Source: Burkholderiaceae bacterium
Lineage (GTDB): Bacteria > Pseudomonadota > Gammaproteobacteria > Burkholderiales > Burkholderiaceae_B
Reading direction: 5' to 3'
Assembly (NCBI GenBank): GCA_050252075.1
Contig: JBFWLP010000003.1
Span: 2,195-66,194, forward strand
DNA: 64,000 nt
Both the position numbers and the translations under genes were made by a program. This document shows positions 11,557-42,871 of the stretch, piece after piece; the first letter of the stretch is position 1; each line of letters begins with the position of its first letter. The notes beneath the pieces were generated by a model that searched no databases, was not told the origin of the DNA, and worked only from the letters and a program-made list of their open reading frames with translations.

Positions 11557-12242
11557 TGTTTAATGTGGCTGTTCGGGCTGCCCTTGCCATGGCAGTGTTG
11601 ATCGTGTCCGGATGTGCCCTGGTGCCGCCGGAGCCGGTGGTGACCGGCCCGCTCACCGCGCCGCCGCCCATGCCGGTGGCGGTGCCGTCCGTCGAGGCCA
11701 ACGGTGCCATTTACCAGCCGACGGCGTATGGCAGCTACCCTTTGTTTGAAGACCGTCGCCCCCGCAACGTGGGGGATATCGTAACCGTCGTCATTCAAGA
11801 GCGCACGAACGCGGCCAAGAACGTACAAACCACCACCGACCGCAACAGCAGTGGCATGTTCGGTGCCGAGATCGTTCCCGACCTTCTGCCGTCGTCGCTG
11901 GGCGGCCAGGGCTTTGAAATGTCGGGTGAGAACTCGCTCGATGGCCGTGGTTCCACCCGCGCCGACAATACTTTCACCGGCACCCTGACCACCACCGTGG
12001 TGGGCGTGCTGCCCAACGGAAACCTGCAAATTGCGGGCGACAAGCAAATGGCTATCAATCGGGGCAGCGAGCATATCCGTTTTTCCGGCGTGGTCGACCC
12101 GCGCTCGATCACCGGCAATGGCACGGTACTGTCCACCCAGGTGGCCGACGCGCGCATCGAGTTTCGCAGCAAAGGCACCATGGATGAAGTGCAAACCATG
12201 GGTTGGCTGCAACGCTTTTTCCTGAACGTTTCACCGTTCTGA
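11556..12242 (+). CDS. flgH: L-ring lipoprotein FlgH
   Basis: 228 aa. Lipobox [22 protein letters not shown] and [10 protein letters not shown] motifs. ATG overlaps the flgG TAA. Confidence 0.95.
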
Positions 12243-12252
12243 TGGATTGATC

Positions 12253-13386: not shown

Positions 13387-13401
13387 CGATCCGGGGGCGT
13401 C

Positions 13402-14400: not shown

Positions 14401-14532
14401 GCCGGCCTGTTCCTGCCGGGCCGTTGATCACGGCGGCAACGGCGATCGCGGCGCCAGTCACTATGCCAACCGCGATTGCCGGGTACCCCTGTGAAAACCC
14501 GGATTAACAGCCAAAAGATGCCTGTAAAAGCA

Positions 14533-14559
14533 TAAATCTTTTCGCCAGAATGCCGTTAA
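14533..14559 (+). promoter_or_regulatory. Sigma-28 promoter for flgKL
   Basis: TAAATCTT-N11-GCCGTTAA. The -10 element ends 60 nt upstream of the flgK ATG. Confidence 0.7.
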
Positions 14560-14618
14560 CCTATACAACATGCCATCACAGGGCGGGTTTTTCGCCCTGA
14601 ACGCTACGGAATTCTGCC

Positions 14619-16286
14619 ATGAGCTTAACGAATCTAGGGTTATCGGGGTTAACGGCGGCGCAAAATCGCCTGATCACAACCGGTCACAACATCGATAATG
14701 CCGCTACCGAAGGCTACAACCGGCAGGCGGTAGCCGTGGAGACCGCCGGTGCGCGGGCGACCAGCGCCGGGTATTACGGTCGCGGTGTGCAAGTGGTTAC
14801 CGTTCAGCGTGCTTACGACAACTTTATGTACCGGCAACTGGTCAACGCCGAAACCGCCCAGGCATCGTTCACCAGCTATCAAAACGAAATCACCCAGGTG
14901 AACAATTTGTTCGCCGACCGCACAGTGGGCATTTCGCCCGCCATGCAGAAATTCTTCGACGGGGTTCACGCGGTGGCTTCGGCGCCGGCCGACAGCGCGG
15001 CGCGCCAGGAAATGCTGGGCCGGGCCAACAGCCTGGCCGCCCAGATCAACGATACCAATGCGTTTCTGAATAACCAGCGCAACAATATCAATACGCAATT
15101 AACCACCCTGGTCAGCCAGATCAACAGCCAGGCCGAGCGGGTCAACAGCCTGAATCTGCAAATTGCGCAAGCCCGGGCCTCGTCCTCGTCGCACGAGCCG
15201 AACGATCTGCTCGACCAGCGCGATCAGGTGGTACGTGAACTGAGCCAGCTGGTGGGTGTTACGGTCATCGAGCAGGAAGGCAAATACAATTTAACCCTGG
15301 GCGGCGGGCAAACGTTATTGGGCGGCACGTCGGTATTTCCGCTGCAGGCGGTGCCGGCCAGCGGCGATCCCTCGCGCCTGGTGGTGGCGGCAACGGCCAC
15401 GGGTTCCGGGGGTACCCCGGTTGCCAAGATCATCGATGAAACCCGCCTGACCGGCGGGCAACTGGGCGGGCTGCTTCAGTACCGGCGCGAATCGCTTGAC
15501 GCCGTCCAGAACGAGCTGGGCCGCCTGGCGGTGGGCCTTACCCATGCCTTCAACAGCGTTCATGCCACCGGGGCTGATCTGGCCGGCACTGCCGGCGGCG
15601 AATTCTTCCGCATTGGCGACATTACCGCCGTGCCCGGAAAGAACAACAGCGGTACCGGGCCGGCGGTTACGGCCGCCATTACCACCGCCGGCGATCTGTC
15701 GGCACAAGATTACGAAATCAGGCTCACCGACGCCACGGCGCCGGGAACCTACACCATCACCCGTCTGCCCGATGGCCAGGCGCAAACCTATACGGTCGAT
15801 GCCGGCCAGGAAATTGAAATCGACGGCGTCACGTTCGGCAATCTTGACGGCGCGCACACGGCAGGCGACTCCTGGGTAGTGCAGCCAACCCGCCAGGCGG
15901 CCGCCCAGTTTTCGGTATCCATTTCCGATCCGGCAAAAATTGCCGTGGCCAAACCCAATACCGGTACTGCCAACGGCGAAATCGGTCTTCAGCTGGCGCA
16001 GCTGCAAACCGCCAAGATCATGGGCAGCGGCAGTCTCAGCCCGAACGAGGCCTTCTCGCAAATCGTGAACCGTGTTGCCGTGCAAGCGCAGCAAAACGCC
16101 ACATCGGTGAAAGCCCAGGAAGCCCTGGTGGCCCAGAATCTGAAGACGCAGCAGTCGCTGTCGGGGGTTAACCTGAATGAAGAGTTCGTCAATCTTGAAC
16201 GCTTCCAGGAGCAGTTCCGCGCCGCTTCACGGCTTATCGACGTAAGCTCCAAGCTGTTTGAAACACTGATCAATCTGCGTTCTTAA
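14619..16286 (+). CDS. flgK: Hook-filament junction protein FlgK
   Basis: 555 aa. N-terminus LSGLTAAQNRLITTGHNIDNAATEGYNRQ and C-terminus SGVNLNEEFVNLERFQEQFRAASRLI. Confidence 0.95.
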   Translation: MSLTNLGLSGLTAAQNRLITTGHNIDNAATEGYNRQAVAVETAGARATSAGYYGRGVQVVTVQRAYDNFMYRQLVNAETAQASFTSYQNEITQVNNLFADRTVGISPAMQKFFDGVHAVASAPADSAARQEMLGRANSLAAQINDTNAFLNNQRNNINTQLTTLVSQINSQAERVNSLNLQIAQARASSSSHEPNDLLDQRDQVVRELSQLVGVTVIEQEGKYNLTLGGGQTLLGGTSVFPLQAVPASGDPSRLVVAATATGSGGTPVAKIIDETRLTGGQLGGLLQYRRESLDAVQNELGRLAVGLTHAFNSVHATGADLAGTAGGEFFRIGDITAVPGKNNSGTGPAVTAAITTAGDLSAQDYEIRLTDATAPGTYTITRLPDGQAQTYTVDAGQEIEIDGVTFGNLDGAHTAGDSWVVQPTRQAAAQFSVSISDPAKIAVAKPNTGTANGEIGLQLAQLQTAKIMGSGSLSPNEAFSQIVNRVAVQAQQNATSVKAQEALVAQNLKTQQSLSGVNLNEEFVNLERFQEQFRAASRLIDVSSKLFETLINLRS

Positions 16287-22876: not shown

Positions 22877-24388
22877 TCAGGCGAACGTGTCGATAAGCGC
22901 ATTCGATGCCACGGCGCGGGTGGGTGGCATGGCTGGCGCAGTCGAGGGTTGCGCGGAGGCGCTTCCCGGGAATGCGTGGTTGCCTGCGGAACCCGATGAG
23001 TTCCCCGAACCCTGGCCTTGCTGGGCGAATGACTGCTGCTGTGCGCTGTGGTCGCTGACATCGGCTTGACCCAGGGTGATGCCCGACTGGGCCAGCAGCT
23101 GCTGCAGCTGGGGCAGTGCGTTTTCTACGCTTTGGCGAACAGCGGCATGCGCCGATACAAATGCCGCCTGCAGGGTGGATTCGTTCAGGTTGATGGAAAT
23201 GCGGATGGGCCCCAGATCGGGTGGGTCGAGGCGCATTTCAATAGTGTGCCCGCCGGCCGGGTTTGATTGAGCCAGCGCGGTAATCTGGCGACCGAATTCG
23301 GTTCCCCAGTCGGGATGGTGGATGGGCAGCGCCACTTGCCCCGACGCCGTCGGGGCTGCTGCGCTGATTACCTGCAAACCGGGCGAAACCGATGGGGAAA
23401 ACGCCGCACCGGCCGCCTGCGTGTCATGCCGTGCCAGCCAGTCGGCCTGCATCAGGGTGGCGCTGGGCATAGGGTCGGACGGAACACCGCGCGCCTGTGA
23501 CAGCGCGGTGAAGAAATCGGGGGCGATCTCGGGTTCCTGGCCGCTTTCCAGCGCCATGGCCCGGTGATGTGCCACTTGAACCGCATGCTTCAGCCCGGCA
23601 AGCGCGGCTTCGCGCTGGCTGCCGACGGGGCGGGTGGCGGCCGAGGCGGGCGCCCGAAGCGCTGCGGTATCGTCGGCGGTTAGCGCGTTGGTTGTACGCA
23701 TGGCGCTTGTACGGGCTGCCAGGGCGGTGTTGCTAGTGGCGTCGGCAGCAAGGGTTTGAGCCGATTCTCTGGCGGCGCCCCGTGCCTGGGCCGCAAGGGC
23801 CGCCTGACCGGCTTCGGATGTGCCCGCCTGTGCGCCGCGCGACTGCGACAGGCCCTGCGTACGGGCGACATCGGCCGTATGTTTGATGTCAGCGAATGCG
23901 GTGTCGGCAGCGTTGCCGCCGGCAGACAGGCCACCGCCGGACAAACGCCCGTTAACGGCCGCCGGTGCTTGACCGTTCAGGGGCGATTGCCCTTTGGCGT
24001 TCGCAGCGTCGCGACCAGAGTGCCCTGTGGCGGTTGCGCCGGCGCGGGTCGCCGAAACCGTATTTCCCCAGCGTGCCTGGATGCCCTGTCGTACGGCGGC
24101 CGCTTCGGCGGCCAGTGTCAGTGTTGTGGCGGGCTGAGCAGCAACATGGCCGGCGGCGGCTGCGGCTCCCGCCTGCGCGGCGGTGGCATCAGAGGCTGCC
24201 GCGGTGTCGGCGGCGGATGATTCACGTTCGGTTCGCTTTTGCGGATCGCGGGCGGGCGGTGTGGCCCGTTGCGCCGACAGCACGTTGGCAAACCCGGAGT
24301 GGCCGGCATCGGCGTGATTGACGTTTGCGCTGTGCACGCCGCCCGGCGTTGAGGCGGGTAGGACTGTTATAAGTTGTTGTGTCGTCAT
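22877..24388 (-). CDS. fliK: Hook-length control protein FliK
   Basis: 503 aa, Ala/Gln/Ser/Pro-rich. C-terminal Flg_hook-type block (IEMRLDPPDLGPIRISINLNESTLQAAFVSAHAAVRQSVENALPQLQQLLAQSGITLG). Confidence 0.85.
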   Translation of the reverse strand: MTTQQLITVLPASTPGGVHSANVNHADAGHSGFANVLSAQRATPPARDPQKRTERESSAADTAAASDATAAQAGAAAAAGHVAAQPATTLTLAAEAAAVRQGIQARWGNTVSATRAGATATGHSGRDAANAKGQSPLNGQAPAAVNGRLSGGGLSAGGNAADTAFADIKHTADVARTQGLSQSRGAQAGTSEAGQAALAAQARGAARESAQTLAADATSNTALAARTSAMRTTNALTADDTAALRAPASAATRPVGSQREAALAGLKHAVQVAHHRAMALESGQEPEIAPDFFTALSQARGVPSDPMPSATLMQADWLARHDTQAAGAAFSPSVSPGLQVISAAAPTASGQVALPIHHPDWGTEFGRQITALAQSNPAGGHTIEMRLDPPDLGPIRISINLNESTLQAAFVSAHAAVRQSVENALPQLQQLLAQSGITLGQADVSDHSAQQQSFAQQGQGSGNSSGSAGNHAFPGSASAQPSTAPAMPPTRAVASNALIDTFA

Positions 24389-30420: not shown

Positions 30421-30740
30421 GCCTGGGTGCCAGGGCCTGCCTGGTCGGAAGCGGCCAGAAGTTCCTGGTGTTTCCGGCCGCCCTCAAGCGAGTACAGCCA
30501 TGCCAGCAGTTCGGCCACCGCCACATACAACTGCGGTGGAATATGGGCGTCAAGGTTCACCTGCATCAGCAGCCCCACCAGTTCGGGCGATTCATGCACG
30601 TACAGGCCGTGTTCCTTGGCGGTACGAATAATGTTGTCGGCCACGGTGCCATAGCCCTTGGCCACCACGCGCGGCGCCGCATCGGTTTTATCGTAGGCAA
30701 TGGCAACGGCGCTGGCCCGGCCGTCGTCGCGGGGTCTCAT
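30417..30740 (-). CDS. Stand-alone FlhB C-terminal (CC subdomain)-like protein, EscU/YscU/FlhB family
   Basis: 107 aa. Aligns by eye with the post-NPTH part of the FlhB in this window: AVAIAYDKTDAAPRVVAKGYG...IPPQLYVAVAELLAWLYSL against YAVALSYQEGQGGAPRVIAKGSG...IPTALYTAVAEVLAWVFQL. It has no TM region and no NPTH motif. Confidence 0.8.
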   Translation of the reverse strand: MRPRDDGRASAVAIAYDKTDAAPRVVAKGYGTVADNIIRTAKEHGLYVHESPELVGLLMQVNLDAHIPPQLYVAVAELLAWLYSLEGGRKHQELLAASDQAGPGTQA

Positions 30741-32350
30741 AGCGGCCCCCTGGCGCCCGTACCGCCGGCAGCGTCGTATTTGTCCCAGTAATCGTCATCG
30801 ATCAGATCGGCCAGCGGCGACGCCGCCGGGCCTTCCGCACGGGCGGCCGGTTCGGGCGCCGTGTCGTGGCGGCTGACGGAAAGCTGGCTGAGCACCAGCC
30901 CCTGCGCGCTGTAACGGCTGCGCAAGGCGTCGAGCTGTTGCGCCAGCATCGGCGCCGAATCGGGCGCAACCAGCCGCATGACCACCTGTTGATCCGTCAG
31001 TGTAATGCGCGCCTGAACCTGCCCCAGCTCGGGCAGATCAACGGTGAGGGTGGTTGCCCAATGGGCCGGGTGCTCGTCGCCGTTCATGTCTTGCCAGGCT
31101 TCCCGCCGCTCGATCTGCCATTCGGTGGGGGCATCGGGCCACACTTCGCCACGCCAGGCGACCTGCTGGTTCGCCAGCACGTCGAGCTGCTGGCGAACCA
31201 GCAGATGGGTTTTGGGATCCATGGCATTCAGACCCGACGCCAATGTGCCCGCGCCTGCGCCGGCAGCGGTGGCGGCGGATGCAGCCGCCGGTGGAGCGCC
31301 CGCCGGTGCCCCCGGACTGGCGGCCTGAACCGGGGCGCCGGGCATTGGTCCGGCCGATGCCGTGTTCGGAGCACCCTGGCGCAAGGCCGGCGAGGCAGTT
31401 TGCGCGGCCAGCTGGGCTTGCGGTTCTTGCCGAAGCTGCGATGGGGCCATTTTGCCGAATGCCAGCTGGGCCAGGTGCGCTTCGTAAAACATGCCGCTGT
31501 TCTGAATGGCTGCCGAGAGCGCCTGCGCCAGTTGCCCGGCAACCTGCCCTGCTACTTGGCCCGAAAGGGCTGCCGCTGCCGTTGTACCCGCCGCGGCGCC
31601 GGTCGCCGAGGCGGCTGACCCGGGCGCGGACGTTGACAAGGCCGGCGCCCCGCCGGCAGCACCCGAAGGAGAGCCGACCGCCTGGCCCGACGGCCCGGCC
31701 GATGCGCCGGCGCTGCCCGACGCACCCGGTGTTCCGGAAGGTGACGTCTGTGCGTTCGATGACCCCGGTGCGGATCCAGATTGCGGGGTGCCGCCCGCCG
31801 ATGGCGGCGTGGCACCTGTGGGTGCCGCCGGGCTGCCGGATGCCGACGATGACCCACCCGCCCCGGGCGAGGCGGCTTGCCCGGCAGAGGGTTGGCTTTG
31901 CCGGCCTTCGCCCTGGGCTTGCCCCTGCGGGCCGAACGGAAACAACGGGCGTCGGTGGTGGGTTAAGGGCGGCGATTCGGGATAACCGGCCAGCAGCGCC
32001 AGTATGGTTTGTGCGGCAAACCCCAGGCGGGTAGGGGCCGAGGCCGTGGCCGCCGTGCTGGGCGCGTTGCGTGCCTGCAATAGTTCGGCGGTTTTGGGAT
32101 CGAGCCGGCTGCGATCAATGGTTTGCCGGTTCGACTGTTCGGTATGGCTGCGGGCACGATCAACGGCTTCACGCGGGTCGCGCTGGGTGTCGTTGGGCAG
32201 GGCGTCGGTGCGTGCCGCCGTGCCGGGCTGGCTGACCGCGTCGGGCCGGGCGCCCGTAACCAGATTCGATTGCTGGGAAAGCGTGGTTCCCAGCATGGCA
32301 TCGAGACGCTGCACCAGCAGGGTGCCGAGGGCCGACGGGCCGGAGCTCAT
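30737..32350 (-). CDS. FliK-like (hook-length-control-like) protein, second paralog
   Basis: 537 aa with a very low-complexity Ala/Gly/Ser/Pro centre. The C-terminal block (LTVDLPELGQVQARITLTDQQVVMRLVAPDSAPMLAQQLDALRSRYSAQGLVLSQLSVS) resembles the FliK C-domain. Start overlaps the fliT stop, and its own stop overlaps the next gene's start. Confidence 0.65.
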   Translation of the reverse strand: MSSGPSALGTLLVQRLDAMLGTTLSQQSNLVTGARPDAVSQPGTAARTDALPNDTQRDPREAVDRARSHTEQSNRQTIDRSRLDPKTAELLQARNAPSTAATASAPTRLGFAAQTILALLAGYPESPPLTHHRRPLFPFGPQGQAQGEGRQSQPSAGQAASPGAGGSSSASGSPAAPTGATPPSAGGTPQSGSAPGSSNAQTSPSGTPGASGSAGASAGPSGQAVGSPSGAAGGAPALSTSAPGSAASATGAAAGTTAAAALSGQVAGQVAGQLAQALSAAIQNSGMFYEAHLAQLAFGKMAPSQLRQEPQAQLAAQTASPALRQGAPNTASAGPMPGAPVQAASPGAPAGAPPAAASAATAAGAGAGTLASGLNAMDPKTHLLVRQQLDVLANQQVAWRGEVWPDAPTEWQIERREAWQDMNGDEHPAHWATTLTVDLPELGQVQARITLTDQQVVMRLVAPDSAPMLAQQLDALRSRYSAQGLVLSQLSVSRHDTAPEPAARAEGPAASPLADLIDDDYWDKYDAAGGTGARGPL

Positions 32351-35207: not shown

Positions 35208-35234
35208 TTAACGGCAGTCGTTCACGAAACTTTA
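35208..35234 (-). promoter_or_regulatory. Sigma-28 promoter for the flaG-fliDST operon
   Basis: Minus strand reads TAAAGTTT-N11-GCCGTTAA. The -10 element ends 53 nt upstream of the flaG ATG. Confidence 0.8.
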
Positions 35235-35361: not shown

Positions 35362-36126
35362 ATGGCAAGTTCCGAAGACATTCTGGTTGGGCAGTATGCG
35401 CCGCTGGTGCGCCGTTTGGCGTTGCAGCTGGTTTCGCGCTTGCCCCCCAGCGTGGAACTGGATGATCTGATTCAGGCCGGCCTGATGGGTTTGCTGGATG
35501 CCGTTCGGCGCTATCAGGAAATGCCCGAAGCCCAGTTTGAAACGTATGCGTCCACCCGCATACGCGGCGCCATGCTCGACGAACTGCGCAGCCAGGACTG
35601 GCTGCCACGCAGCGCCCGCAGCAAAAGCCGCACCATTGAGCACACCATACAGAAACTTACCCACGAACAGCTGCGGCCGCCGACCGAATCTGAAATTGCC
35701 GGTGCGCTGGGCGTGCCCCTGCCCGACTACCACGCCATGCTCGACGACGCGCGCGGCGTACAAATCGTCCATTACGAGGATCTGGCCCGCAATATCGACG
35801 AGGGGGCGGCGCATCCGCTGGATTTCGGCAGTGACCAGGCCCCGCTGAGCACCCCGTGGGACAACCCGCTAACCGTGCTGGAATCGGCCGGCTTGCGGCA
35901 TGCCCTGGTGGCCGCCATCGGGGCACTGCCCGAACGCGAGCAACTGGTGCTGTCACTGCAATTCGAGCAAGACCTGAACCAGAAAGAAATCGCCGCCGTC
36001 ATGGGCATTACCGAAGGCCGGGTGTCGCAGCTGCGATCCCAGGCCGTGGCCCGGCTGCGTGCCTCGCTGGCCGCAGGGGCATGGGATGAAAGCCCGGGCG
36101 ATGACTTGTTGTCGGGTTTGTTGTAG
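35362..36126 (+). CDS. fliA: Flagellar sigma factor FliA (sigma-28)
   Basis: 254 aa. Region 2 (DDLIQAGLMGLLDAVRRYQ) and region 4 HTH (LNQKEIAAVMGITEGRVSQLRSQAV). Confidence 0.95.
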   Translation: MASSEDILVGQYAPLVRRLALQLVSRLPPSVELDDLIQAGLMGLLDAVRRYQEMPEAQFETYASTRIRGAMLDELRSQDWLPRSARSKSRTIEHTIQKLTHEQLRPPTESEIAGALGVPLPDYHAMLDDARGVQIVHYEDLARNIDEGAAHPLDFGSDQAPLSTPWDNPLTVLESAGLRHALVAAIGALPEREQLVLSLQFEQDLNQKEIAAVMGITEGRVSQLRSQAVARLRASLAAGAWDESPGDDLLSGLL

Positions 36127-36224
36127 CAAACGGATTGTCCCGTTTACGGCCGTTATTCCCGCCTTTACACCGGCATTTCCCTTGGTATTCTGGCTTTCTT
36201 AGAAGACTGCTCAAGGTGGCGTGA

Positions 36225-37544
36225 ATGCGGGTAACTATTTTTGGAATCGGTTATGTGGGCCTGGCGCAGGCCGCCGTACTGGCCCAGGTGGGTCACGATG
36301 TGGTGTGCGTGGATGTTGATGCCGACAAGGTCGACGCCCTGAACCAGGGGAAAATTCCCATTTACGAACCCGGCCTTACCGCCCTGGTGCGTGACAACGC
36401 GGCGGCAGGGCGGTTGGTCTTCACCACCGATGCCGATGCCGGTGTAAAACACGCCGAAGTGCAGTTCATTGCGGTGGGCACCCCCCCCGACGAGGACGGT
36501 TCGGCCGATCTGCGCCATGTGCTTGCCGTTGCGGAAACCATTGGCCGCCACATGAACGGCCATCGTGTGGTCATAGACAAATCCACCGTGCCGGTAGGCA
36601 CGGCCGAAAAAGTGGCCGACCGCCTGCGCGCCGTGCTGGCCGGGCGACAGGCCTCGCACCTGACCTTCGACGTGGTGTCCAACCCGGAGTTCCTGAAAGA
36701 GGGTTCCGCCGTGGGCGACTGCATGCGCCCCGACCGTATTATTGTGGGCACCGACAGCAGCCACGCCGAAGACGTAATGCGCGAGCTTTATGCCCCGTTC
36801 AACCGCAATCACGAAAAAATGATTGTCATGGATGTACGCAGCGCCGAGCTGACCAAATACGCCGCCAACGGTATGCTGGCAACAAAAATCAGCTTCATGA
36901 ATGAAATAGCCAACGTGGCCGAGCGCCTGGGCGCCGACATTGAACTGGTGCGCCAGGGCATTGGTTCGGACCCCCGTATCGGCTACGACTTTATTTATGC
37001 CGGCGCCGGCTACGGCGGGTCGTGCTTTCCCAAAGATATTAAAGCCCTGATCAAGACCGCACACGATTGCGGGGTTGAGGCCTGGATACTGAAAGCGGTT
37101 GAACAACGCAATGCCGAGCAGAAAACCGTGCTGTTCCAGAAAATAGCCCGGCATTTCGGCGACCTGGCCGGCAAAGTGATTGCGGTGTGGGGGCTAAGCT
37201 TCAAGCCCAATACCAATGACATGCGGGACGCACCCAGCCGTGTGCTGATGGAAGCCCTGTGGAGCGCGGGCGCCGTGGTGCAGGCCTACGACCCCGAAGC
37301 CATGGAAGAAGCCCAGCGGCTGTATGCCGCACGCGACGAACTGGTGCTGTGCGGCACCAAAGAGGCGGCTCTGCGCGGCGCGGATGCCCTGGCCATCGTG
37401 ACCGACTGGCAGGTATTCAAGGCGCCCGACTTCGACTATATAAAAGAAAAACTGAAAACCCCTGTGGTGTTCGACGGCCGGAATTTATATGATCCCGCCC
37501 GCATGCAGCGCAGGGGGTTCACGTATTATTCGATTGGGCGCTGA
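36225..37544 (+). CDS. ugd: UDP-glucose 6-dehydrogenase
   Basis: 439 aa. Rossmann motif [16 protein letters not shown], catalytic-Cys block YGGSCFPKD, and [15 protein letters not shown]. Confidence 0.9.
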
Positions 37545-37619
37545 GTCGATTAAAAGTGGCGCCCGGCTGTTGTAAAGGGTTTGCCAGAGTGGGCGATAGT
37601 TTCGCAGTGCTTTTTATCG

Positions 37620-40600
37620 CTAATTTAAATGGCTTCGAATGCGGCCTGCCAGATCCTTGCTGCCATAAGCGTCGTCGAGTATTAATGCCAATTTTTCACG
37701 CTGGGTTTTACTTAGCTTATGAAGCTGGTTGATGTCCCTGATATAAACCGCATCTGCGGTTGTCAGCTGGTTTATGCCTTGGTGAATTTGCCCTTTCAGC
37801 ACGTATGGTGCAAATAGCCGTATACGCTGCTCAAGCAACGTGTGCAGCATGAAACCATGTTCGCGCATCCACTGATCGATTTCCGCGAACAATGGTTGAT
37901 TTTCGTATAGCGGAATAAAGTTGACTTCGGTTTGTATAACCAAGGCATCCTTGAGCTTTTGTTCGCCATGACGGAAAACAGCCAGCTCGCCGCCTTGAAT
38001 ATCAATTTTCAACCAGTCAATGTGGTCTATTTCATTGATGTCATCCAGCCGCACGGTTGTCAAGGGGATTTCCTGGCGTACTTTTGCCCAGTCGGGGTAT
38101 CCCTGAAAGTGGTTCAGTAACGCTGCGTTCGGCTTGAGGGTTGACGTCATTCCTGACGCCTGGCAAACATAGAGCGTCGCTGCACGTCCGTCGCCTACGG
38201 CGTAAGGCAGGTAGGTTTCGTTCGGCCCTTTGGTGCGTAACAGTGTATTTAGAGCGTCGGTCTGGGGTTCAAAACCCACCAGCTTTACCTGCTTTTTCTG
38301 CAGCAGCTTTTTATACGGAGGGTCGCCGTCGATCGGATTTGCTCCGATATCGACCACGTACAGCTCTTTTGAGTTCGCCGCTACGTTTGAATGCTGGGAG
38401 TCGTCCATGGATGTCAGGATGGCTTGGTTGAGTGGGGTATCTGCAGGGCTTGCACCCGGCAAGTAGCGCCCATCGTCTTGCAGAGCAGGTAACGTTGTTT
38501 TTACCGAAGTGGTATCAGAATGCCCCGCTTGTGCTTGATTAATAAAGCGGGCATCCAGCCAAGCGCGATAACGTTCCGCGTCGGTGGTGCTGATAGTAGC
38601 CAGCAGCGAGTAAGGCAAGTCGTAAATCTGGAAAGCGGTGTGCAGCAAAAAGGCAAGCTTGCGCTTGTCATTTTCGGGCCTCTGTTCCAGCATAGCTGGT
38701 GACGGAACAAATAACGCATCGAAACTAAGCAGCTTGGTAGCCTGCGTGCCTGAAGGATCGATTTGCTGATTAAAATAGCTGAAATAAGAAGGATTGCTGA
38801 ACTGATAAAAATCGAAACCCTTGTCTTTCAGAAACCCTTGCAGTGCGTCAAGCGTAGCCTGGTTCTGATACCTTGGTGTGGCGTTTAGTCGTACTTGAAT
38901 CAGTAGCGCTGAGGCCAGTTTGGATGATGCATTTTCCAGCAGTGTTAATGCATCGGTAGTTTCATCCATTAACAGCCAGTCCAGTTTTTCAACGCCATCA
39001 ATATCGTCTAAACGGCTGCTGGGTAAACTGACCTTGGCCAATGTATGAATGGGGTCGATAGCTTGTGCGCCATCATCACTGGCACCCAATGGTACTAAGG
39101 TTGAGGAATGCTGGTTATTCAAACATGCGTGCAGTGTCGCCGCAGACCCATTACCAAGAACGTGGTTCGGCACATAATGTAGATCGTTGCCGGAAAGCTG
39201 GCCAGCGTAATCCTTAAGCCGCGCTGCGGGGTCGAATACGACGGCTTCATGTACCTGAAGGTTCAGCAACGGTTTAAAGCGGTCGTCGGTGAGCAGTCGG
39301 CCGCCATGGTCGATCGCCACCAGTTTCCCGTTGAAAGAAAAGGAAAAATCCTTCGCCTTATCGTCAGCCCAAAGCCCGGGTAATTCAAAAGGTTTTGTTT
39401 CGCCGTCAAACCACGCTTTACCTTGTTTGTCCAGGGTTAACGCCGCAGGGGGTTTGCCTTCACAATAGCGGCTCCAGATGGCTCGCATAGCCAATGTAAA
39501 GTTCTTGGCGAACCGTTTGTAATCGCACAACGGCGATTTCTGCACCTGTTCCGGCAGCTTCTGGCGCAAGATTGCAAGATACTGCGGATTCATGGCCAGT
39601 TCGACGGCAATATCCTTGTACTGATCCCAATCGTTGGCCACCAGTTCCGGCAGACCGGCATTGGTCAAATGCGTGGCGCTGTGGCGCCCTGCAAAGGTGG
39701 GGCCGGGGTAGGTTACCACCGGCACCCCCATAATCAAGGATTCGCACGTAGTTAGCCCGCCGGAATATGGCCAGGGGTCTAGCGCAACATCAATTTTGTT
39801 GTACGTATCCAGTAGTTCGTAGTGCGGTGAATGGCCTTCAAATTCGATTCGTGAAGGCTCGATGCCGTGCTCGAGGAACTGGCTGCGAATACGATCTAAA
39901 AACTCCTGGTGGTCGTATTGGGGGCCTTTCAGAAGCAGATGGCTTTGCGGCACGCGATGCAGAATATCGGCCCAGTGCTGAACAATGACAGGGTTGATTT
40001 TTGAAGGATTGTTGAAGCAGCCGAATGTGATGTGGTTGTTTTCAAAGAAAGGCACATTTTTTATCGAAGGCCTGTCTCCCCGGGGGGTGTAGCAAATGTA
40101 ATCGTCAGGTAGGCGAATTATTTTTTCGGTATAGAAATTGTCGCAGCCGTTAGGGGTTTCTATTTCGTCGCTCAGAAAATAATCAATCGTATCAAGGCCG
40201 GTTGTATTTATCTGCCCCCCAACCCATTTCACTTGGATTGGGCTAGGCTTGGTTGCCATGGTCAATAGCCTGTTACCCTCGGTGTGGCCACATAGATCAA
40301 AAAGGATATCTATTTGATCATCTTGTATCTTGTCGGATAAAGCATCATGACTGAGTGCAGTTACACTTTGCCAGTAATCGAAACGGCTCTTGAATAGTTC
40401 TGTAATAGAGTCAGAATCATCGCGCATGCTGTATGCATGTAGCTCAAACTCTGATGGCGACAGGCGGCGCATTGACGAGATTATCATCTGGCCTACGGGA
40501 TGGATCCGAAGCCCTGCTGAAATAAACCCTAACTTTAACTTTCTATTAGGGTCTTTATTTGTTTTTTCCCTAGGTTTTGTTTTTACCTTGAATATTTTTT

Positions 40601-41354
40601 TCCAATCCAAGTGCTTCTGAAAAATATACTCGTTGCTGTGTGCAGGGTTGTAATGCAATGACATCAAATAGTTCGAATAAATTTCGACTCTTTCAGGGTC
40701 AAGCTTATGCGCTTTCAAATAGGCGTTTTCCGCTTTTTCGTAGGCTCCTATTGAGCGATAGGCGCCGGCAATATTCGATAAAGTGGCCGTATTGTTTGGA
40801 TTGTCCTTTAATATTTTCTCCAGGACATATAGCCCCTCAGAAAAATTTCCTTTTTTTGTAAATGAATTTGCTTTTCGGTTGCTTAATATTATATTTTCAG
40901 GGTGCTGTGTAAGGGCAAGATCTAACTCTTCTAAGCACTCATCGTACTTCCCCAGGTCGTACAAAAGTTTAGTGTGCAAATCACTCAAGGTAAAAGATTG
41001 CTTATTGATGCTCGATGCTTTTTTTGCATGTATTAAAGCAGTGATGAGGTCGTGTTTTGTGTACGCAATTTTTGCCAGTGCTTCTTCTAGTGCTTCGTCG
41101 CTTGGCAACAACCCTTGTATGCTTGTTATTATCTTTTCTGATTCTAAATGTTTGCCTTCTGCAAAAAGTGATAGTGCCAGAATTTTTTGCAGCTCTGGGT
41201 CGTTCAGAAACGGACTGTTTGACTCGTCAAACCAGTTAATTATCGCTTTAAAATTATTGTTTTTGTAAAGTGACAACAGGGATGTTAGTGCCTGCTGTTT
41301 GGTGTTGTAAGCGCTGGCTTTTCCAGTGCTTCGCTGCTTGTTTTTACGGTTCAT
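37620..41354 (-). CDS. Multidomain putative flagellin-modifying enzyme: TPR repeats + GT41 (SPINDLY/OGT-like) glycosyltransferase + two FkbM-type methyltransferase modules
   Basis: 1244 aa, clearly AT-richer than its surroundings. Residues ~1-260 are TPR-like helices. Residues ~270-650 carry GT41 blocks (IDILFDLCGHTEGNRLL..KPSPIQVKWVGG..TTGLDTIDYFLSDE; FGCFNNPSKINP; DVALDPWPYSGGLTTCESLIMGVPVVT). Residues ~690-880 are a degenerate FkbM-like module. Residues ~1010-1244 are an FkbM module (VVDIGAN...WLKIDIQGGEL). Lies directly downstream of fliC. Confidence 0.8.
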   Translation of the reverse strand: MNRKNKQRSTGKASAYNTKQQALTSLLSLYKNNNFKAIINWFDESNSPFLNDPELQKILALSLFAEGKHLESEKIITSIQGLLPSDEALEEALAKIAYTKHDLITALIHAKKASSINKQSFTLSDLHTKLLYDLGKYDECLEELDLALTQHPENIILSNRKANSFTKKGNFSEGLYVLEKILKDNPNNTATLSNIAGAYRSIGAYEKAENAYLKAHKLDPERVEIYSNYLMSLHYNPAHSNEYIFQKHLDWKKIFKVKTKPREKTNKDPNRKLKLGFISAGLRIHPVGQMIISSMRRLSPSEFELHAYSMRDDSDSITELFKSRFDYWQSVTALSHDALSDKIQDDQIDILFDLCGHTEGNRLLTMATKPSPIQVKWVGGQINTTGLDTIDYFLSDEIETPNGCDNFYTEKIIRLPDDYICYTPRGDRPSIKNVPFFENNHITFGCFNNPSKINPVIVQHWADILHRVPQSHLLLKGPQYDHQEFLDRIRSQFLEHGIEPSRIEFEGHSPHYELLDTYNKIDVALDPWPYSGGLTTCESLIMGVPVVTYPGPTFAGRHSATHLTNAGLPELVANDWDQYKDIAVELAMNPQYLAILRQKLPEQVQKSPLCDYKRFAKNFTLAMRAIWSRYCEGKPPAALTLDKQGKAWFDGETKPFELPGLWADDKAKDFSFSFNGKLVAIDHGGRLLTDDRFKPLLNLQVHEAVVFDPAARLKDYAGQLSGNDLHYVPNHVLGNGSAATLHACLNNQHSSTLVPLGASDDGAQAIDPIHTLAKVSLPSSRLDDIDGVEKLDWLLMDETTDALTLLENASSKLASALLIQVRLNATPRYQNQATLDALQGFLKDKGFDFYQFSNPSYFSYFNQQIDPSGTQATKLLSFDALFVPSPAMLEQRPENDKRKLAFLLHTAFQIYDLPYSLLATISTTDAERYRAWLDARFINQAQAGHSDTTSVKTTLPALQDDGRYLPGASPADTPLNQAILTSMDDSQHSNVAANSKELYVVDIGANPIDGDPPYKKLLQKKQVKLVGFEPQTDALNTLLRTKGPNETYLPYAVGDGRAATLYVCQASGMTSTLKPNAALLNHFQGYPDWAKVRQEIPLTTVRLDDINEIDHIDWLKIDIQGGELAVFRHGEQKLKDALVIQTEVNFIPLYENQPLFAEIDQWMREHGFMLHTLLEQRIRLFAPYVLKGQIHQGINQLTTADAVYIRDINQLHKLSKTQREKLALILDDAYGSKDLAGRIRSHLN

Positions 41355-41493
41355 GACAGATCACGTAGGGGGCTTGTAGTGGCTGGGTTATCAGCTGATT
41401 CTACAATTGCCTGACTATTTCTGTGGTACGAATAGCAGGTAAAAAAAGCACTATTTGGCTAGATTGTTTTGGAAAATAAACTCTTTAGCCATG

Positions 41494-41529
41494 AAAAACG
41501 GGCTCTCCAAATAGCGGAGAGCCCGTTTT
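41494..41529 (-). terminator. Rho-independent terminator after fliC
   Basis: 11-bp GC-rich stem ACGGGCTCTCC/GGAGAGCCCGT with a 7-nt loop, followed by TTTTT on the minus strand. Lies 20 nt after the fliC stop. Confidence 0.8.
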
Positions 41530-41549
41530 GTAAGCTACCTGGCGTCAAA

Positions 41550-42713
41550 TTAACGCAGCAGAGACAACACGCCTTGAGGCAACTGATTCGCTTGCGCCAG
41601 AACGGAGGTTCCAGCCTGTTGCAGAATCTGAGAGCGAGTCATATTTGCTACTTCCACCGCGTAGTCTGCATCTTCGATTCGCGAACGGGCAGCCGTCAGG
41701 TTTGTCGAATTCGTTTGCAGGTTGGTGATGGCAGTTTCAAGACGGTTTTGAATCGCCCCGAGATCAGATCTTAAGGTGTCTACGGTTGTCAAGGCCGTGT
41801 CCAGGGCAGCCAACGGATTATCCGTTGCGCCAGTTTTTAGTGCCCGTGCAGTCAGATCACTCATGTCCAGCGTGAAAGCGGCAGTAGTGGTGGCTGTTGC
41901 AGCATCGTTCGGGTTTAGTGCAACATAATATACACGGTTCTCTAAGCCCGTTTCTGCCTGTTCTGTTGAGGTAAGAGCAGCGACTGTGACTTGGGCAAAC
42001 CAGTTGCCTGCGTCGTCTACGAGCGCGTTAGCGGTATCGATCGTGACCGTGCCTGTAGTGATTCCAAGATCCGTTTTAAATTCTGCAGTGCCAGCCGCTG
42101 TAACCGATGAGTCTGCAATCTCTGTGGTTTCGCCCCATGCGGCCTCAAATGCAGCAGTAGATGCTGCAACTGGGGTGCCTTTCGCGCCATTGACATTGAA
42201 TGTCGACAGGTCAAGTGAATTGGAGGTAATCGCTTCCAGATCAATTTCGATCACTTCACCGTCATTGGCACCCACCTGAATGTTCAGTGTGGTGTCGTTC
42301 GCCAGAACTTTTACGCCGTTGAAGTCGGTTTGTGCTGAAATACGGTCAATTTCAGCCAGGCGTTGATTAATTTCAGCCTGCAGTGAGTCGCGGTCGGCAG
42401 TCGTGTATGTATCGTTCAGTGACTGAACGGCCAGTTCACGAATGCGTTGCAGGTTGGTGTTGACTTCGTTCAGCGCGCCTTCGGCGGTTTGGGCTACCGA
42501 AATACCGTCGTTGGCGTTACGCTGGGCTTGTGCCAGGCCGCGAGTTTGTGCGCTCATGCGGTTGGCAATGGCCTGGCCGGCGGCGTCGTCTTTGGCGCTG
42601 TTGATGCGCAGGCCCGACGACAGGCGCTCAATGGCGTTGCCCAGGGCGGATTGGGATTTCTGCAGGTTGTTCTGAGCAACCAGGGACAGATAGTTGGTGT
42701 TGATAACTGACAT
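41550..42713 (-). CDS. fliC: Flagellin FliC
   Basis: Start at the ATG at 42713, with AAGGAG 7 nt upstream. MSVINTNYLSLVAQNNLQKSQSALGNAIERLSSGLRINSAKDDAAGQAIANR... C-terminus SQILQQAGTSVLAQANQLPQGVLSLLR. The central domain is Thr/Ala/Ser-rich. Confidence 0.95.
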   Translation of the reverse strand: MSVINTNYLSLVAQNNLQKSQSALGNAIERLSSGLRINSAKDDAAGQAIANRMSAQTRGLAQAQRNANDGISVAQTAEGALNEVNTNLQRIRELAVQSLNDTYTTADRDSLQAEINQRLAEIDRISAQTDFNGVKVLANDTTLNIQVGANDGEVIEIDLEAITSNSLDLSTFNVNGAKGTPVAASTAAFEAAWGETTEIADSSVTAAGTAEFKTDLGITTGTVTIDTANALVDDAGNWFAQVTVAALTSTEQAETGLENRVYYVALNPNDAATATTTAAFTLDMSDLTARALKTGATDNPLAALDTALTTVDTLRSDLGAIQNRLETAITNLQTNSTNLTAARSRIEDADYAVEVANMTRSQILQQAGTSVLAQANQLPQGVLSLLR

Positions 42714-42844
42714 GATGAACTCCTTCGAGTAACAAATACGGCGACACGAGATCCGCCTGATTGCCAAGAAGAAAACGTTGGGTTTCTGTGCCGTATTACT
42801 GGTTTACACCCTGACTTAAAGCCGTTTCTTCCTGTTCACTCTCG

Positions 42845-42871
42845 TTAACGGCCCGGTTTGGAACAACTTTA
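42845..42871 (-). promoter_or_regulatory. Sigma-28 promoter for fliC
   Basis: Minus strand reads TAAAGTTG-N11-GCCGTTAA. The -10 element ends 132 nt upstream of the fliC ATG. Confidence 0.8.

What the first reader, a model, noticed from the sequence alone, without database searches (positions are those of the whole stretch)
37620..42871. AT-rich two-gene cassette: flagellin plus a 1244-aa TPR-GT41-FkbM-FkbM fusion enzyme
This is the only clearly AT-rich block in the window. My hand counts on sample lines give about 37% GC at 40501-40560 and about 52% at 38701-38760, against about 58-67% in the flanking genes. It holds only fliC, with its own sigma-28 promoter and a strong terminator, and directly downstream a single giant ORF. 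That ORF joins N-terminal TPR repeats, an OGT/SPINDLY-type GT41 glycosyltransferase core and two FkbM-type methyltransferase modules. TPR-plus-GT enzymes are known flagellin glycosyltransferases (for example Caulobacter FlmG, where the TPR part binds flagellin). The central domain of this flagellin is Thr/Ser/Ala-rich. A single polypeptide that would both glycosylate and O-methylate, apparently travelling with its flagellin as a compositionally foreign unit, is something I cannot assign to a characterised system.
Basis: partly seen in the sequence, partly recalled or inferred. Interest (0 to 1): 0.75.

Follow-up and report, generated by a model that had tools for sequence, protein, structure and literature searches.

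The report
Flagellin gene with fused sugar-adding, methylating enzyme
This is a small, AT-rich flagellin glycosylation island: a flagellin gene followed by one large enzyme predicted to attach a sugar to flagellin and methylate it, a gene arrangement common in Proteobacteria and already catalogued by comparative genomics but not yet studied biochemically.

Summary
The block 37620-42871 has 48.6% GC against 62.1% elsewhere. It holds only fliC, with a sigma-28 promoter and a strong terminator, and a 1244-aa ORF. That ORF reads TPR, then a SPINDLY-like GT41 domain, then an FkbM-like middle module, then a canonical FkbM methyltransferase. Pfam misses the middle module, but it is a full-length paralogue of the FkbM module (hhalign E 3.7e-45) with a methyltransferase fold.

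The combination is not unassignable. TPR+GT41+middle module is the core of a large proteobacterial family. In 49 of 54 related loci it lies directly downstream of a flagellin gene. GT41-methyltransferase fusions in low-GC flagellin glycosylation islands were described for Enterobacteriaceae in 2016.

The new points are local:
- Three near-identical alleles show module swapping. The FkbM end is replaced by an unrelated module at a linker.
- The TPR end diverges together with the flagellin surface domain.
- A compositionally native UDP-glucose dehydrogenase sits between fliA and the enzyme. That arrangement recurs in five metagenome contigs, so the functional unit probably has three genes.
- An invariant Tyr at the SPINDLY Y744 position argues against GlcNAc as donor.

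Verdict: a new member of a known kind, of moderate interest.

The parts
42845..42871 (-). sigma-28 (FliA)-type promoter of fliC, TAAAGTTG-N11-GCCGTTAA
   Evidence: Read directly. Pattern scan: 1 mismatch to TAAA-N15-GCCGATAA. There were 7 hits in the window against 2.07 expected, and the same GCCGTTAA form occurs before flaG/fliD (35208-35234) and flgK (14533-14559).
41550..42713 (-). fliC, flagellin, 387 aa; the predicted acceptor substrate
   Evidence: Pfam Flagellin_N 2e-45 and Flagellin_C 3.7e-30; NCBIfam FliC/FljB 1.1e-142. It is 100% identical to a flagellin of an NCBI MAG labelled 'Burkholderiaceae bacterium'. The ATG at 42713 follows AAGGAG. The central 125 residues are Ala/Thr-rich, with 29 Ser+Thr.
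41494..41529 (-). intrinsic terminator after fliC: AAAACGGGCTCTCC / loop / GGAGAGCCCGTTTT, then T
   Evidence: Read directly. The hairpin is also present after fliC in allele L003, with a slightly different loop. It was not listed by the simple scan, probably because its T-run falls short of that scan's rule of at least 5 T in 8 bases after the stem.
41355..41549 (-). 195-nt AT-rich spacer between fliC and the enzyme gene; no recognisable sigma-28 promoter
   Evidence: GC 0.436. There is no TAAA-N15-GCCGATAA match with up to 2 mismatches. How the enzyme gene is transcribed is therefore inferred (terminator read-through or an unrecognised promoter).
40635..41354 (-). residues 1-240 of the 1244-aa ORF: N-terminal TPR region, the predicted flagellin-binding part
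   Evidence: TPR_14, TPR_2, TPR_1, TPR_11 and TPR_19 score above their Pfam cut-offs around residues 130-235. It aligns to the last TPRs of SPINDLY. It is the most AT-rich part (GC 0.40) and the most variable between alleles (26-55% identity in P0001).
39435..40634 (-). residues 241-640: GT41 (SPINDLY/OGT-type) glycosyltransferase catalytic domain
   Evidence: Glyco_transf_41 2.9e-45. Arabidopsis SPINDLY 7y4i matches at E 2.9e-85 over residues 132-643. K452, H285, N448 and Y530 align to SPINDLY K665, H495, N661 and Y744 and are invariant in alignment A1.
38565..39377 (-). residues 660-930: middle FkbM-like module, a diverged paralogue of the C-terminal methyltransferase; activity unknown
   Evidence: No Pfam hit at E<=10. 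BLASTP against the C-terminal module gives 3e-20. hhalign gives probability 100%, E 3.7e-45, 246 columns. The AlphaFold2 model has pLDDT 83.8, and all 50 listed Foldseek PDB matches are SAM-dependent methyltransferases or methyltransferase-fold enzymes. The module is present in every core family member, including the 903-aa P. poae protein.
37623..38357 (-). residues 1000-1244: canonical FkbM-family (Methyltransf_21) methyltransferase module, a swappable tailoring domain
   Evidence: PF05050 5.2e-23 and TIGR01444 8.3e-11, both above cut-off. Motifs VVDIGANPIDG, GFEPQ and KIDIQGGEL are invariant in A1. It is 67-74% identical in distant homologues against 52% for GT41. In allele L003 it is replaced by an unrelated module, with the junction near residue 960.
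36225..37544 (+). ugd, UDP-glucose 6-dehydrogenase-type gene, convergent with the enzyme gene; probable functional partner (inferred)
   Evidence: Three UDPG_MGDP_dh Pfam domains. NCBIfam NDP-sugar dehydrogenase 1.3e-136, TuaD-like. GC3 0.718, so compositionally native. It is the only sugar-nucleotide gene found in the flagellar cluster. The same arrangement, enzyme gene then convergent ugd then fliA, occurs in L094, L099, L119, L138 and L142. A dehydrogenase of this family also lies next to the homologues in L084 and Pectobacterium.
35362..36126 (+). fliA (sigma-28), directly upstream of ugd on the same strand
   Evidence: NCBIfam FliA 2.4e-79. No terminator-like site lies between fliA and ugd on the + strand.

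Best explanation
The block is a minimal flagellin glycosylation island at the outer end of a flagellar gene cluster, in a bacterium that NCBI labels a Burkholderiaceae MAG. Its nearest named flagellins include several from Alcaligenaceae genera.

Proposed mechanism:
1. FliA (sigma-28) drives very strong fliC transcription.
2. A strong terminator lets only a little transcription pass into the enzyme gene, or that gene has a weak promoter of its own. Either way the enzyme is made in far smaller amounts than its substrate (inferred).
3. The 1244-aa protein is cytoplasmic.
4. Its N-terminal TPR region binds unfolded or chaperone-free flagellin. This is by analogy with FlmG, where it was shown experimentally.
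5. The SPINDLY-like GT41 domain transfers a small, non-N-acetylated sugar from a nucleotide sugar onto Ser/Thr of the Ala/Thr-rich surface domain, before export through the flagellar type III system.
6. The C-terminal FkbM domain O-methylates that sugar with S-adenosylmethionine.
7. The middle module is an ancient duplicate of the FkbM domain and belongs to the invariant core of the family. It is either a second methyltransferase or a non-catalytic scaffold or sugar-binding domain.
8. The neighbouring ugd, embedded in the flagellar cluster downstream of fliA, probably supplies UDP-glucuronic acid, or a sugar derived from it, as donor. This is the weakest step.

The locus is a recombination hot spot, like O-antigen loci. 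The fliC centre and the TPR end are exchanged together. The C-terminal tailoring module is exchanged separately, at an inter-domain linker. This diversifies the filament surface.
For: Shown here:
- Domain calls.
- The SPINDLY match at E 2.9e-85, with the essential Lys (K665 to K452) and His (H495 to H285) conserved and invariant in the family.
- The middle module is a paralogue of the FkbM module with a methyltransferase fold.
- Synteny: a flagellin gene lies immediately upstream on the same strand in 49 of 54 related loci. This holds in Pectobacterium, Bordetella bronchialis, Pseudomonas poae and a metagenome contig.
- Family-wide lower GC: median -0.04 against flanks, n=49. Here it is about -0.14.
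- The sigma-28 promoter and the terminator.
- Mosaic alleles at one chromosomal site with 97-100% identical ugd.
- TPR distance tracks flagellin-centre distance after controlling for the GT41 domain: partial r 0.305, reached by 0 of 500 permutations. The reverse partial r is 0.13.
- ugd recurs next to the enzyme gene and fliA.
- Tyr530 sits at the SPINDLY Y744 position, which that structural study links to small donors rather than GlcNAc.

From the literature:
- The FlmG TPR domain binds flagellins, and glycosylation is cytoplasmic (PMC7591256).
- Flagellin glycosylation islands with GT41-methyltransferase fusions are known (PMC4875605).
- Methylated sugars occur in Pseudomonas syringae flagellin glycans (PMC3927599).
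Against: - No member of this GT41 flagellin-linked family was found to be biochemically characterised in the searchable literature. Acceptor, donor sugar and methylation target are therefore all inferred.
- No promoter was found for the enzyme gene.
- ugd is compositionally native and is absent from most related loci: it lies within 7 kb in 11 of 65. It may serve lipopolysaccharide or other pathways instead.
- Several donor-contacting residues differ from SPINDLY (T748 to Leu534, S496 to Pro286), so donor prediction from homology is weak.
- The TPR/flagellin covariation could reflect nothing more than physical linkage within one recombination tract, because the TPR-coding end is the part nearest fliC.
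- Fold matches for the middle module are of modest quality (TM 0.3-0.5).
Confidence: 0.72

Rival explanations
1. The enzyme is a general cytoplasmic SPINDLY/OGT-like protein glycosyltransferase with many substrates or a regulatory role. On this view it only happens to lie beside fliC, and flagellin is not its dedicated substrate.
For: The catalytic domain is closest to SPINDLY and to OGT homologues, which modify many proteins. Bacterial GT41 proteins such as XcOGT and TtOGT have no established substrates (PMC9715652). The enzyme gene has no flagellar promoter.
Against: Adjacency to a flagellin gene is conserved in 49 of 54 loci, in Enterobacterales, Pseudomonas and Bordetella as well as many unnamed metagenome contigs. 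The taxa with the closest flagellins are the same taxa that carry the closest enzyme homologues. The TPR region co-varies with the flagellin centre.
Confidence: 0.06
2. The methyltransferase modules act on the flagellin protein itself, for example on Lys or other side chains as FliB does in Salmonella, rather than on the transferred sugar.
For: Flagellin methylation is known in Enterobacteriaceae and Aeromonas (PMC4875605; PMC9290775, listed). The enzyme holds flagellin through its TPR region, so the protein would be within reach.
Against: FkbM/Methyltransf_21 enzymes are, from general knowledge of the family, hydroxyl O-methyltransferases of small molecules and sugars, and are unrelated to FliB. 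This flagellin has only 6 Lys. In other family members the C-terminal position is occupied by glycosyltransferase, sulfotransferase or other sugar-tailoring domains, which fits a glycan-tailoring slot.
Confidence: 0.08
3. The low GC does not mark a recently imported island. The locus is resident and hypervariable, and its AT-richness is maintained by frequent recombination among alleles and by relaxed or different codon selection, as at O-antigen loci. In that case 'foreign cassette' is the wrong picture.
For: Three alleles occupy exactly the same site between 97-100% identical ugd and the conserved fliC ends. The arrangement fliC, enzyme gene, convergent ugd, fliA is old: it is seen with about 42% identical enzymes and about 60% identical ugd in five metagenome loci. 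No mobile-element genes lie in or next to the block.
Against: GC3 of 0.52 against 0.725 is a large gap for a long-resident gene. The nearest named flagellins and enzyme homologues come from many different orders. The FkbM module is far more conserved across taxa (67-74%) than the rest of the protein, as expected if it spreads horizontally. This rival overlaps with the best explanation and differs mainly in emphasis.
Confidence: 0.3

Closest known systems
Flagellin glycosylation islands of Enterobacteriaceae with GT41-methyltransferase fusion enzymes (De Maayer & Cowan 2016, PMC4875605)
   Same: A low-GC insert next to fliC, sometimes a single gene. The GT41 (COG3914, SPINDLY-family) glycosyltransferase carries a methyltransferase domain. 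FkbM-family methyltransferases are common in these islands. There are hallmarks of horizontal exchange. A Pectobacterium full-length homologue (P0018, 42% identity) lies in exactly such an island between fliC and fliA.
   Different: The host here is a betaproteobacterial MAG, not an enterobacterium. That study was purely comparative: it inferred GlcNAc-type sugars and did not resolve the duplicated FkbM-like architecture. Here the Tyr at the SPINDLY Y744 position argues against GlcNAc.
Caulobacter crescentus FlmG (PMC7591256)
   Same: A soluble enzyme with an N-terminal TPR domain that binds flagellins and a C-terminal GT-B glycosyltransferase domain. It acts in the cytoplasm before export. 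This is the working model for how the TPR part functions here.
   Different: FlmG has 596 residues, transfers pseudaminic acid, has no methyltransferase modules, and was not described as GT41. Sequence relatedness to this ORF was not tested here. The resemblance is in how it works, not in family membership.
Arabidopsis SPINDLY (PDB 7y4i, 8dtf), a protein O-fucosyltransferase of family GT41
   Same: It is the best solved-structure match (E 2.9e-85, residues 132-643), covering the last TPRs and both catalytic lobes. There is no intervening domain as in animal OGT. K665, H495, N661 and Y744 are conserved.
   Different: SPINDLY is eukaryotic and nucleocytoplasmic, with hundreds of substrates, 11 TPRs and no methyltransferase modules. 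T748 and S496 are not conserved here (Leu534, Pro286). The donor is unknown.
Pseudomonas syringae flagellin glycosylation (Fgt1/Fgt2 with the viosamine island, including the methyltransferase VioM; PMC3927599)
   Same: Flagellin Ser residues carry a glycan whose terminal sugar is O-methylated by a dedicated methyltransferase. A methylated deoxyhexose is seen in strain B728a. The glycosyltransferase genes lie beside fliC.
   Different: There the methyltransferase is a separate 241-aa protein encoded elsewhere, and it acts in nucleotide-sugar synthesis. Whether Fgt1/Fgt2 are homologous to this ORF was not established. The Pseudomonas homologues I found belong to a second, FlhDC-type flagellar cluster.
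Burkholderia cenocepacia FlmQ (BCAL0111)
   Same: A predicted flagellin glycosyltransferase of a betaproteobacterium. Its deletion gives non-glycosylated flagellin and reduced motility (PMC4462625).
   Different: Its domain make-up and any homology to this ORF could not be checked, because the primary paper is not held. No Burkholderia protein is among the 120 best hits. It is a lead from memory only.

Membership tests
GT41 glycosyltransferases (SPINDLY/OGT/HMW1C type) | Significant match to the Glyco_transf_41 profile across both catalytic lobes | tested here: met
   PF13844 scores 155 bits against a cut-off of 25, E 2.9e-45. SPINDLY 7y4i matches at E 2.9e-85 over residues 132-643, followed by TtOGT, OGT and XcOGT.
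GT41 glycosyltransferases (SPINDLY/OGT/HMW1C type) | Essential phosphate-binding Lys (SPINDLY K665, human OGT K842) and active-site His (SPINDLY H495, human OGT H558) | tested here: met
   K452 and H285 align to these residues and are invariant in 14 full-length homologues. Their roles are taken from PMC9715652.
GT41 glycosyltransferases (SPINDLY/OGT/HMW1C type) | N-terminal TPR array directly preceding the catalytic domain | tested here: met
   Five TPR Pfam families score above their cut-offs at residues 130-235. This stretch aligns with the C-terminal TPRs of SPINDLY.
GT41 glycosyltransferases (SPINDLY/OGT/HMW1C type) | Glycosyl transfer to protein Ser/Thr (or Asn), and the identity of the donor | not testable with these tools
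   Only an indirect hint is available: Tyr530 at the SPINDLY Y744 position, which PMC9715652 links to small sugars and not to GlcNAc.
FkbM-family methyltransferases (Pfam Methyltransf_21, TIGR01444): C-terminal module | Profile match above the curated cut-offs, with the glycine-rich SAM motif and the KIDxEGxE-type motif | tested here: met
   PF05050 scores 82.5 bits (cut-off 22.7) and TIGR01444 scores 42.5 (cut-off 37.7). VVDIGANPIDG, GFEPQ and KIDIQGGEL are invariant in A1.
FkbM-family methyltransferases: middle module (residues 660-930) | Profile match to Methyltransf_21 | tested here: not met
   No Pfam family matches at E<=10. By curated criteria it cannot be filed as an FkbM family member.
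FkbM-family methyltransferases: middle module (residues 660-930) | Homology to an FkbM domain, and a class I methyltransferase fold | tested here: met
   hhalign against the family's C-terminal FkbM profile gives probability 100%, E 3.7e-45, 246 columns. The AlphaFold2 model has pLDDT 83.8, and its best PDB matches are all SAM-dependent methyltransferases or methyltransferase-fold enzymes (E from 2.7e-5, TM 0.3-0.5).
FkbM-family methyltransferases: middle module (residues 660-930) | Intact cofactor and catalytic motifs | tested here: inconclusive
   D-x-G-[AG] (IDHGG) and the acidic F-D-P are kept and nearly invariant. The NPIDG part and the KIDIQGGE motif are lost (LMDETTDA).
Flagellin glycosylation island | A glycosyltransferase gene, with or without tailoring genes, directly linked to the flagellin gene in the flagellar cluster | tested here: met
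   The ORF starts 195 nt after fliC on the same strand, at the end of a cluster running from flgA to fliC. The same linkage holds in 49 of 54 related loci.
Flagellin glycosylation island | Composition differing from the genome, or other signs of horizontal exchange | tested here: met
   GC is 0.486 against 0.621 and GC3 is 0.52 against 0.725. Alleles are mosaic.
Flagellin glycosylation island | The flagellin is actually glycosylated | not testable with these tools
   This needs mass spectrometry of purified flagellin.
Maf-type or FlmG-type nonulosonic-acid flagellin glycosyltransferases | A Maf domain, or linked pseudaminic/legionaminic acid synthesis genes | tested here: not met
   No Maf-type Pfam domain is found in the ORF. 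No nonulosonic-acid synthesis genes are found among the window's annotated ORFs. Sequence homology to FlmG itself was not tested.

The most novel reading that the evidence does not exclude
The family may be a single-polypeptide, plug-and-play assembly line for the flagellin glycan, built from three parts:
1. A TPR 'reader' that co-diversifies with the flagellin surface domain.
2. A constant core made of the SPINDLY-like transferase and an FkbM-derived pseudo- or second methyltransferase.
3. A C-terminal slot in which tailoring domains are exchanged by recombination in a linker, even between strains whose remaining sequence is 96-100% identical. Domains seen in this slot are FkbM, another methyltransferase-like fold, GT2, GT56 and sulfotransferase.

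In this lineage the donor would be a uronic acid supplied by a ugd recruited into the flagellar regulon downstream of fliA. The product would then be a methylated glucuronic-acid-type flagellin glycan made by a GT41 enzyme, which is outside the GT41 donors (fucose, GlcNAc, glucose/galactose) described in the SPINDLY structure paper I read.
Probability: 0.25. Interest if true: 0.6.

Novelty: new member of a known kind. Interest (0 to 1): 0.4.

Why it matters
Flagellin glycans affect filament assembly, motility, immune recognition and probably phage or predator recognition. The GT41-type flagellin glycosyltransferases appear to be one of the most widespread types in Proteobacteria: 613 homologues at E<=1e-10 among the candidates scored. 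Yet no member that I could find has a known sugar, acceptor site or structure.

This locus is a compact, genetically simple example: one substrate gene, one enzyme gene, and perhaps one sugar-nucleotide gene. The natural allele series (FkbM end against another module; divergent TPR with divergent flagellin) amounts to ready-made domain-swap experiments. They could address how a cytoplasmic O-glycosyltransferase recognises its protein substrate and how tailoring is coupled to transfer.

For the genome scan itself, the lesson is that this striking fusion is a known kind of island, not a new system.

Tried and rejected
1. Source genome and close relatives. An exact-protein look-up of the big ORF found only a 5.8-kb Logan contig, and ugd was not on record. 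The single genome-contig scan, anchored on ugd, returned nothing closer than 76% (Halomonas, Azotobacter, Pusillimonas). Only one of its 80 loci (Azotobacter vinelandii) held an enzyme homologue. The planned synteny test in sister species therefore could not be done. The three Logan alleles substituted for it.

2. The idea that the Pseudomonas hits are the characterised Fgt1/Fgt2 of P. syringae was rejected as unsupported. The P. poae homologue sits in a second flagellar cluster with FlhDC.

3. Burkholderia FlmQ as a characterised homologue could not be verified, because the paper is not held.

4. My first reading that the middle module had lost motif I was wrong. The profile alignment shows D-x-G-[AG] retained, so I no longer call it a dead enzyme.

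5. No sigma-28 promoter was found for the enzyme gene. The GCTGATAA-like element near 41387-41394 has no matching -35 element.

6. A sigma-28-like hit at 37573-37599 (+) has 2 mismatches and points antisense into the enzyme gene's 3' end. I treat it as chance.

7. ugd as a universal component was rejected. It is present in only a minority of related loci.

8. The simple terminator scan did not list the fliC terminator. It was read by eye.

Full report
**1. The observation**

The AT-rich block is real and sharply bounded.
- The stretch 37620-42871 has GC 0.486 and the rest of the window 0.621. The lowest other window of the same length is 0.589, and such windows have an sd of 0.014.
- Third-position GC is 0.52 for the big ORF and 0.557 for fliC, against 0.725 +/- 0.057 for 45 other ORFs. 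The neighbouring ugd (0.718) and the hydrolase gene (0.729) are native.
- Inside the block the TPR-coding end is lowest (GC 0.40).

The block holds exactly two genes. The first is fliC, 41550-42713 (-), 387 aa. Its true start is the ATG at 42713 behind AAGGAG, not the listed TTG at 42767. The second is an ORF of 1244 aa at 37620-41354 (-).

fliC has a sigma-28-type promoter, TAAAGTTG-N11-GCCGTTAA, at 42845-42871. It has the same form as the sites before flaG/fliD and flgK. It also has a 14-bp-stem terminator at 41494-41529. No such promoter precedes the big ORF.

**2. Anatomy of the ORF**

Pfam and NCBIfam give three domains:
- TPR repeats at about residues 130-235.
- Glyco_transf_41, E 2.9e-45.
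- One FkbM domain (Methyltransf_21, residues 1002-1168, E 5.2e-23; TIGR01444 above its cut-off).

The best solved-structure relative is Arabidopsis SPINDLY (E 2.9e-85, residues 132-643). It is followed by the Thermobaculum OGT homologue, animal OGT and XcOGT.

I mapped that alignment onto the SPINDLY structure paper (PMC9715652).
- The essential Lys (K665) is K452, the active-site His (H495) is H285, and N661 is N448.
- The donor-size residue Y744 is Y530. All four are invariant in 14 full-length homologues.
- T748 and S496 are not conserved (Leu534, Pro286).
- That paper argues that an aromatic residue at the Y744 position excludes GlcNAc and goes with smaller sugars. The database label 'O-GlcNAc transferase' is therefore probably wrong for this family.

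Three results show what it is:
- It matches the C-terminal module by BLASTP (3e-20, 26% over 209 residues).
- It matches end to end by profile-profile comparison (probability 100%, E 3.7e-45, 246 columns).
- An AlphaFold2 model (pLDDT 83.8, pTM 0.79) finds only SAM-dependent methyltransferases or methyltransferase-fold enzymes among its 50 listed PDB matches, with modest TM-scores of 0.3-0.5.

The module keeps D-x-G-[AG] and the acidic F-D-P motif but has lost the KIDIQGGE motif. Whether it is active cannot be decided from sequence.

**3. The family**

The protein search gave 613 homologues at E<=1e-10 among the candidates scored.
- Full-length homologues with the same four-part architecture (42-47% identity) are annotated 'FkbM family methyltransferase' in Oceanimonas, Brenneria, Pectobacterium and Billgrantia.
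- Reading the sequences shows that TPR + GT41 + middle module is the constant core. The 903-aa Pseudomonas poae protein is the core alone.
- The C-terminal position is a variable slot. From the domain lists it can hold FkbM, another methyltransferase-like module, GT2, GT56, GT1-type or sulfotransferase domains.
- Among distant homologues the FkbM module is much better conserved (67-74% identity) than GT41 (52%), the middle module (29-37%) or the TPR region (20-28%).

**4. Context**

The first 43 kb of the window are a flagellar cluster: flgA, flgK, flgL, fliR, fliP, fliN, fliM, fliK, fliI, fliH, fliG, fliF, fliT, fliS, fliD, flaG, fliA, ugd, the enzyme gene and fliC. Unrelated genes follow.

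The flagellin is 100% identical to one from an NCBI MAG labelled Burkholderiaceae bacterium. The nearest named flagellins (59-68%) come from Halomonadaceae, Azotobacter, Microbulbifer, Thauera and Alcaligenaceae. These are the same taxa that carry the enzyme homologues.

I examined 85 related loci in all: five from exact-protein look-ups and 80 from a metagenome scan. Of these, 65 have GT41 and the middle module in one ORF. Among the 54 with at least 1.5 kb of upstream sequence, 49 have a flagellin gene ending less than 600 nt upstream on the same strand. The enzyme gene is lower in GC than its flanks in most loci (median -0.04, n=49).

**5. Alleles**

Two Logan contigs carry the same locus, fliC, then the enzyme gene, then a convergent ugd. 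Their ugd is 97-100% identical to the window's.
- L003: the GT41 and middle parts are 96-100% identical. The last 285 codons are replaced by an unrelated module, with the junction in the linker near residue 960. That module is homologous to the C-terminus of a Pseudomonas family member (E 3e-24) and weakly resembles Methyltransf_24.
- L002: the FkbM, middle and most of the GT41 parts are 92-100% identical at DNA level. The TPR-coding end (47-60%) and the fliC centre (61-71%) are essentially different sequences.
- At protein level, N-terminus/TPR identity against flagellin-centre identity is 26-55% against 56% in one allele and 74-88% against 88% in the other. The catalytic modules stay at 94-100%.
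- Across 51 flagellin-enzyme pairs, TPR distance follows flagellin-centre distance after controlling for GT41 distance (partial r 0.305, reached by 0 of 500 permutations). The reverse partial correlation is 0.13.

This pattern fits co-evolution of a flagellin-binding TPR domain. It fits equally well a single recombination tract, because the TPR-coding end is the part next to fliC.

**6. ugd**

The convergent neighbour is a UDP-glucose 6-dehydrogenase-type gene. It lies 99 nt downstream of fliA on the same strand, with no terminator-like site between them. It is the only sugar-nucleotide gene in the cluster.

A homologue of at least 58% identity lies within 7 kb in 11 of the 65 core loci. In L094, L099, L119, L138 and L142 the order is the same as here: enzyme gene, convergent ugd, then fliA. 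The closest full-length homologue (L084) and Pectobacterium have a hexapeptide acyltransferase gene plus a dehydrogenase of this family right after the enzyme gene.

I therefore think the functional unit includes ugd, and a uronic-acid-type donor is plausible. This is inference. ugd is native in composition, absent from most related loci, and could serve other pathways.

**7. Mechanism**

1. FliA drives fliC transcription.
2. The enzyme is made at a low level, by read-through of the fliC terminator or from an unrecognised promoter.
3. In the cytoplasm the TPR region holds flagellin. For FlmG this was shown by two-hybrid assays, and the glycosyltransferase domain alone is inactive in vivo (PMC7591256).
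4. The GT41 domain glycosylates Ser/Thr of the Ala/Thr-rich centre, which has 29 Ser+Thr in 125 residues.
5. The FkbM module methylates the sugar.

Methylated sugars in flagellin glycans have precedent in Pseudomonas syringae (PMC3927599).

**8. Comparison with what is known, and novelty**

De Maayer & Cowan (PMC4875605) described enterobacterial flagellin glycosylation islands. These have 1-18 genes, GC on average 5.2% below the genome, and eleven GT41 enzyme types. Nearly all of those enzymes carry a methyltransferase domain, and separate FkbM methyltransferases are common in the islands.

However, I found no biochemical characterisation of any GT41-type flagellin glycosyltransferase in the searchable literature.

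I file this as a new member of a known kind. The local points of interest are the module-swap alleles, the TPR/flagellin co-divergence, the duplicated FkbM architecture and the fliA-ugd link.

**9. Limits**

- The source genome's close relatives could not be retrieved, so 'island' rests on composition and on the three alleles.
- All functional statements beyond domain homology and synteny are inferred.
- The covariation test does not separate co-evolution from linkage, and it uses highly diverged alignments.

Noticed in passing
window 35362-37544 (+); also L094, L099, L119, L138, L142: A UDP-glucose dehydrogenase gene sits directly downstream of fliA inside the flagellar cluster, with no terminator-like site between them. 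The same order, fliA then ugd, convergent with the flagellin glycosyltransferase gene, recurs in five metagenome contigs whose enzymes are only about 42% identical. A sugar-nucleotide gene possibly under flagellar control is unusual.
   Followed up: partly
window 22877-24388 (-) and 30737-32350 (-): Two separate ORFs carry the FliK hook-length-control domain (Flg_hook). The second lies next to fliT, has 70% GC, and its ORF overlaps the fliT ORF by four bases.
   Followed up: no
L003 4137-4755 (C-terminus of P0002) and P0069 residues about 915-1109: An unnamed module of about 200 residues (YFEFGSGGST...DGRFRVAC) replaces the FkbM domain in a near-identical allele. It also ends a Pseudomonas family member (29% identity, E 3e-24). 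Its only Pfam hint is Methyltransf_24 at E 0.11, so it is an uncharacterised tailoring domain.
   Followed up: partly
L085 (Bordetella bronchialis CP016171.1), 8001-15042: The homologue has 1632 aa and adds a GT56 (Fuc4NAc-transferase-like) domain after the FkbM module. It is followed by a DegT aminotransferase gene and a formyltransferase gene, which suggests a formylated amino-deoxyhexose as a second sugar on that flagellin.
   Followed up: no
L088 (Pseudomonas poae CP159260.1): The core-only 903-aa family member lies in a second flagellar cluster with FlhDC, its own flagellin, MotAB and FliA, separate from the usual polar-flagellum genes of Pseudomonas.
   Followed up: no
L084 13771-15228 and L086/L087 13567-15522: In the closest full-length homologue's locus and in Pectobacterium, a second, longer flagellin gene (485-646 aa) follows the dehydrogenase gene. 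One enzyme may therefore serve two flagellins there. The window has only one flagellin gene, plus flgL.
   Followed up: no
window 37573-37599 (+): A sigma-28-like motif with two mismatches lies in the 75-nt gap between the converging ugd and enzyme genes, and points antisense into the enzyme gene. It is probably chance.
   Followed up: no
window 8788-10218, 10281-11102, 12664-13839 (-): Three long ORFs inside the flagellar cluster gave no Pfam match at E<=1e-5. They may be wrong-frame shadow ORFs of this GC-rich DNA rather than genes (one has an atypical GC1/GC2 pattern).
   Followed up: no
window 41550-42716: The public annotation of the identical flagellin has 388 aa, one residue longer than the ATG-started 387-aa reading. 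It apparently starts at the ATC codon just upstream.
   Followed up: partly
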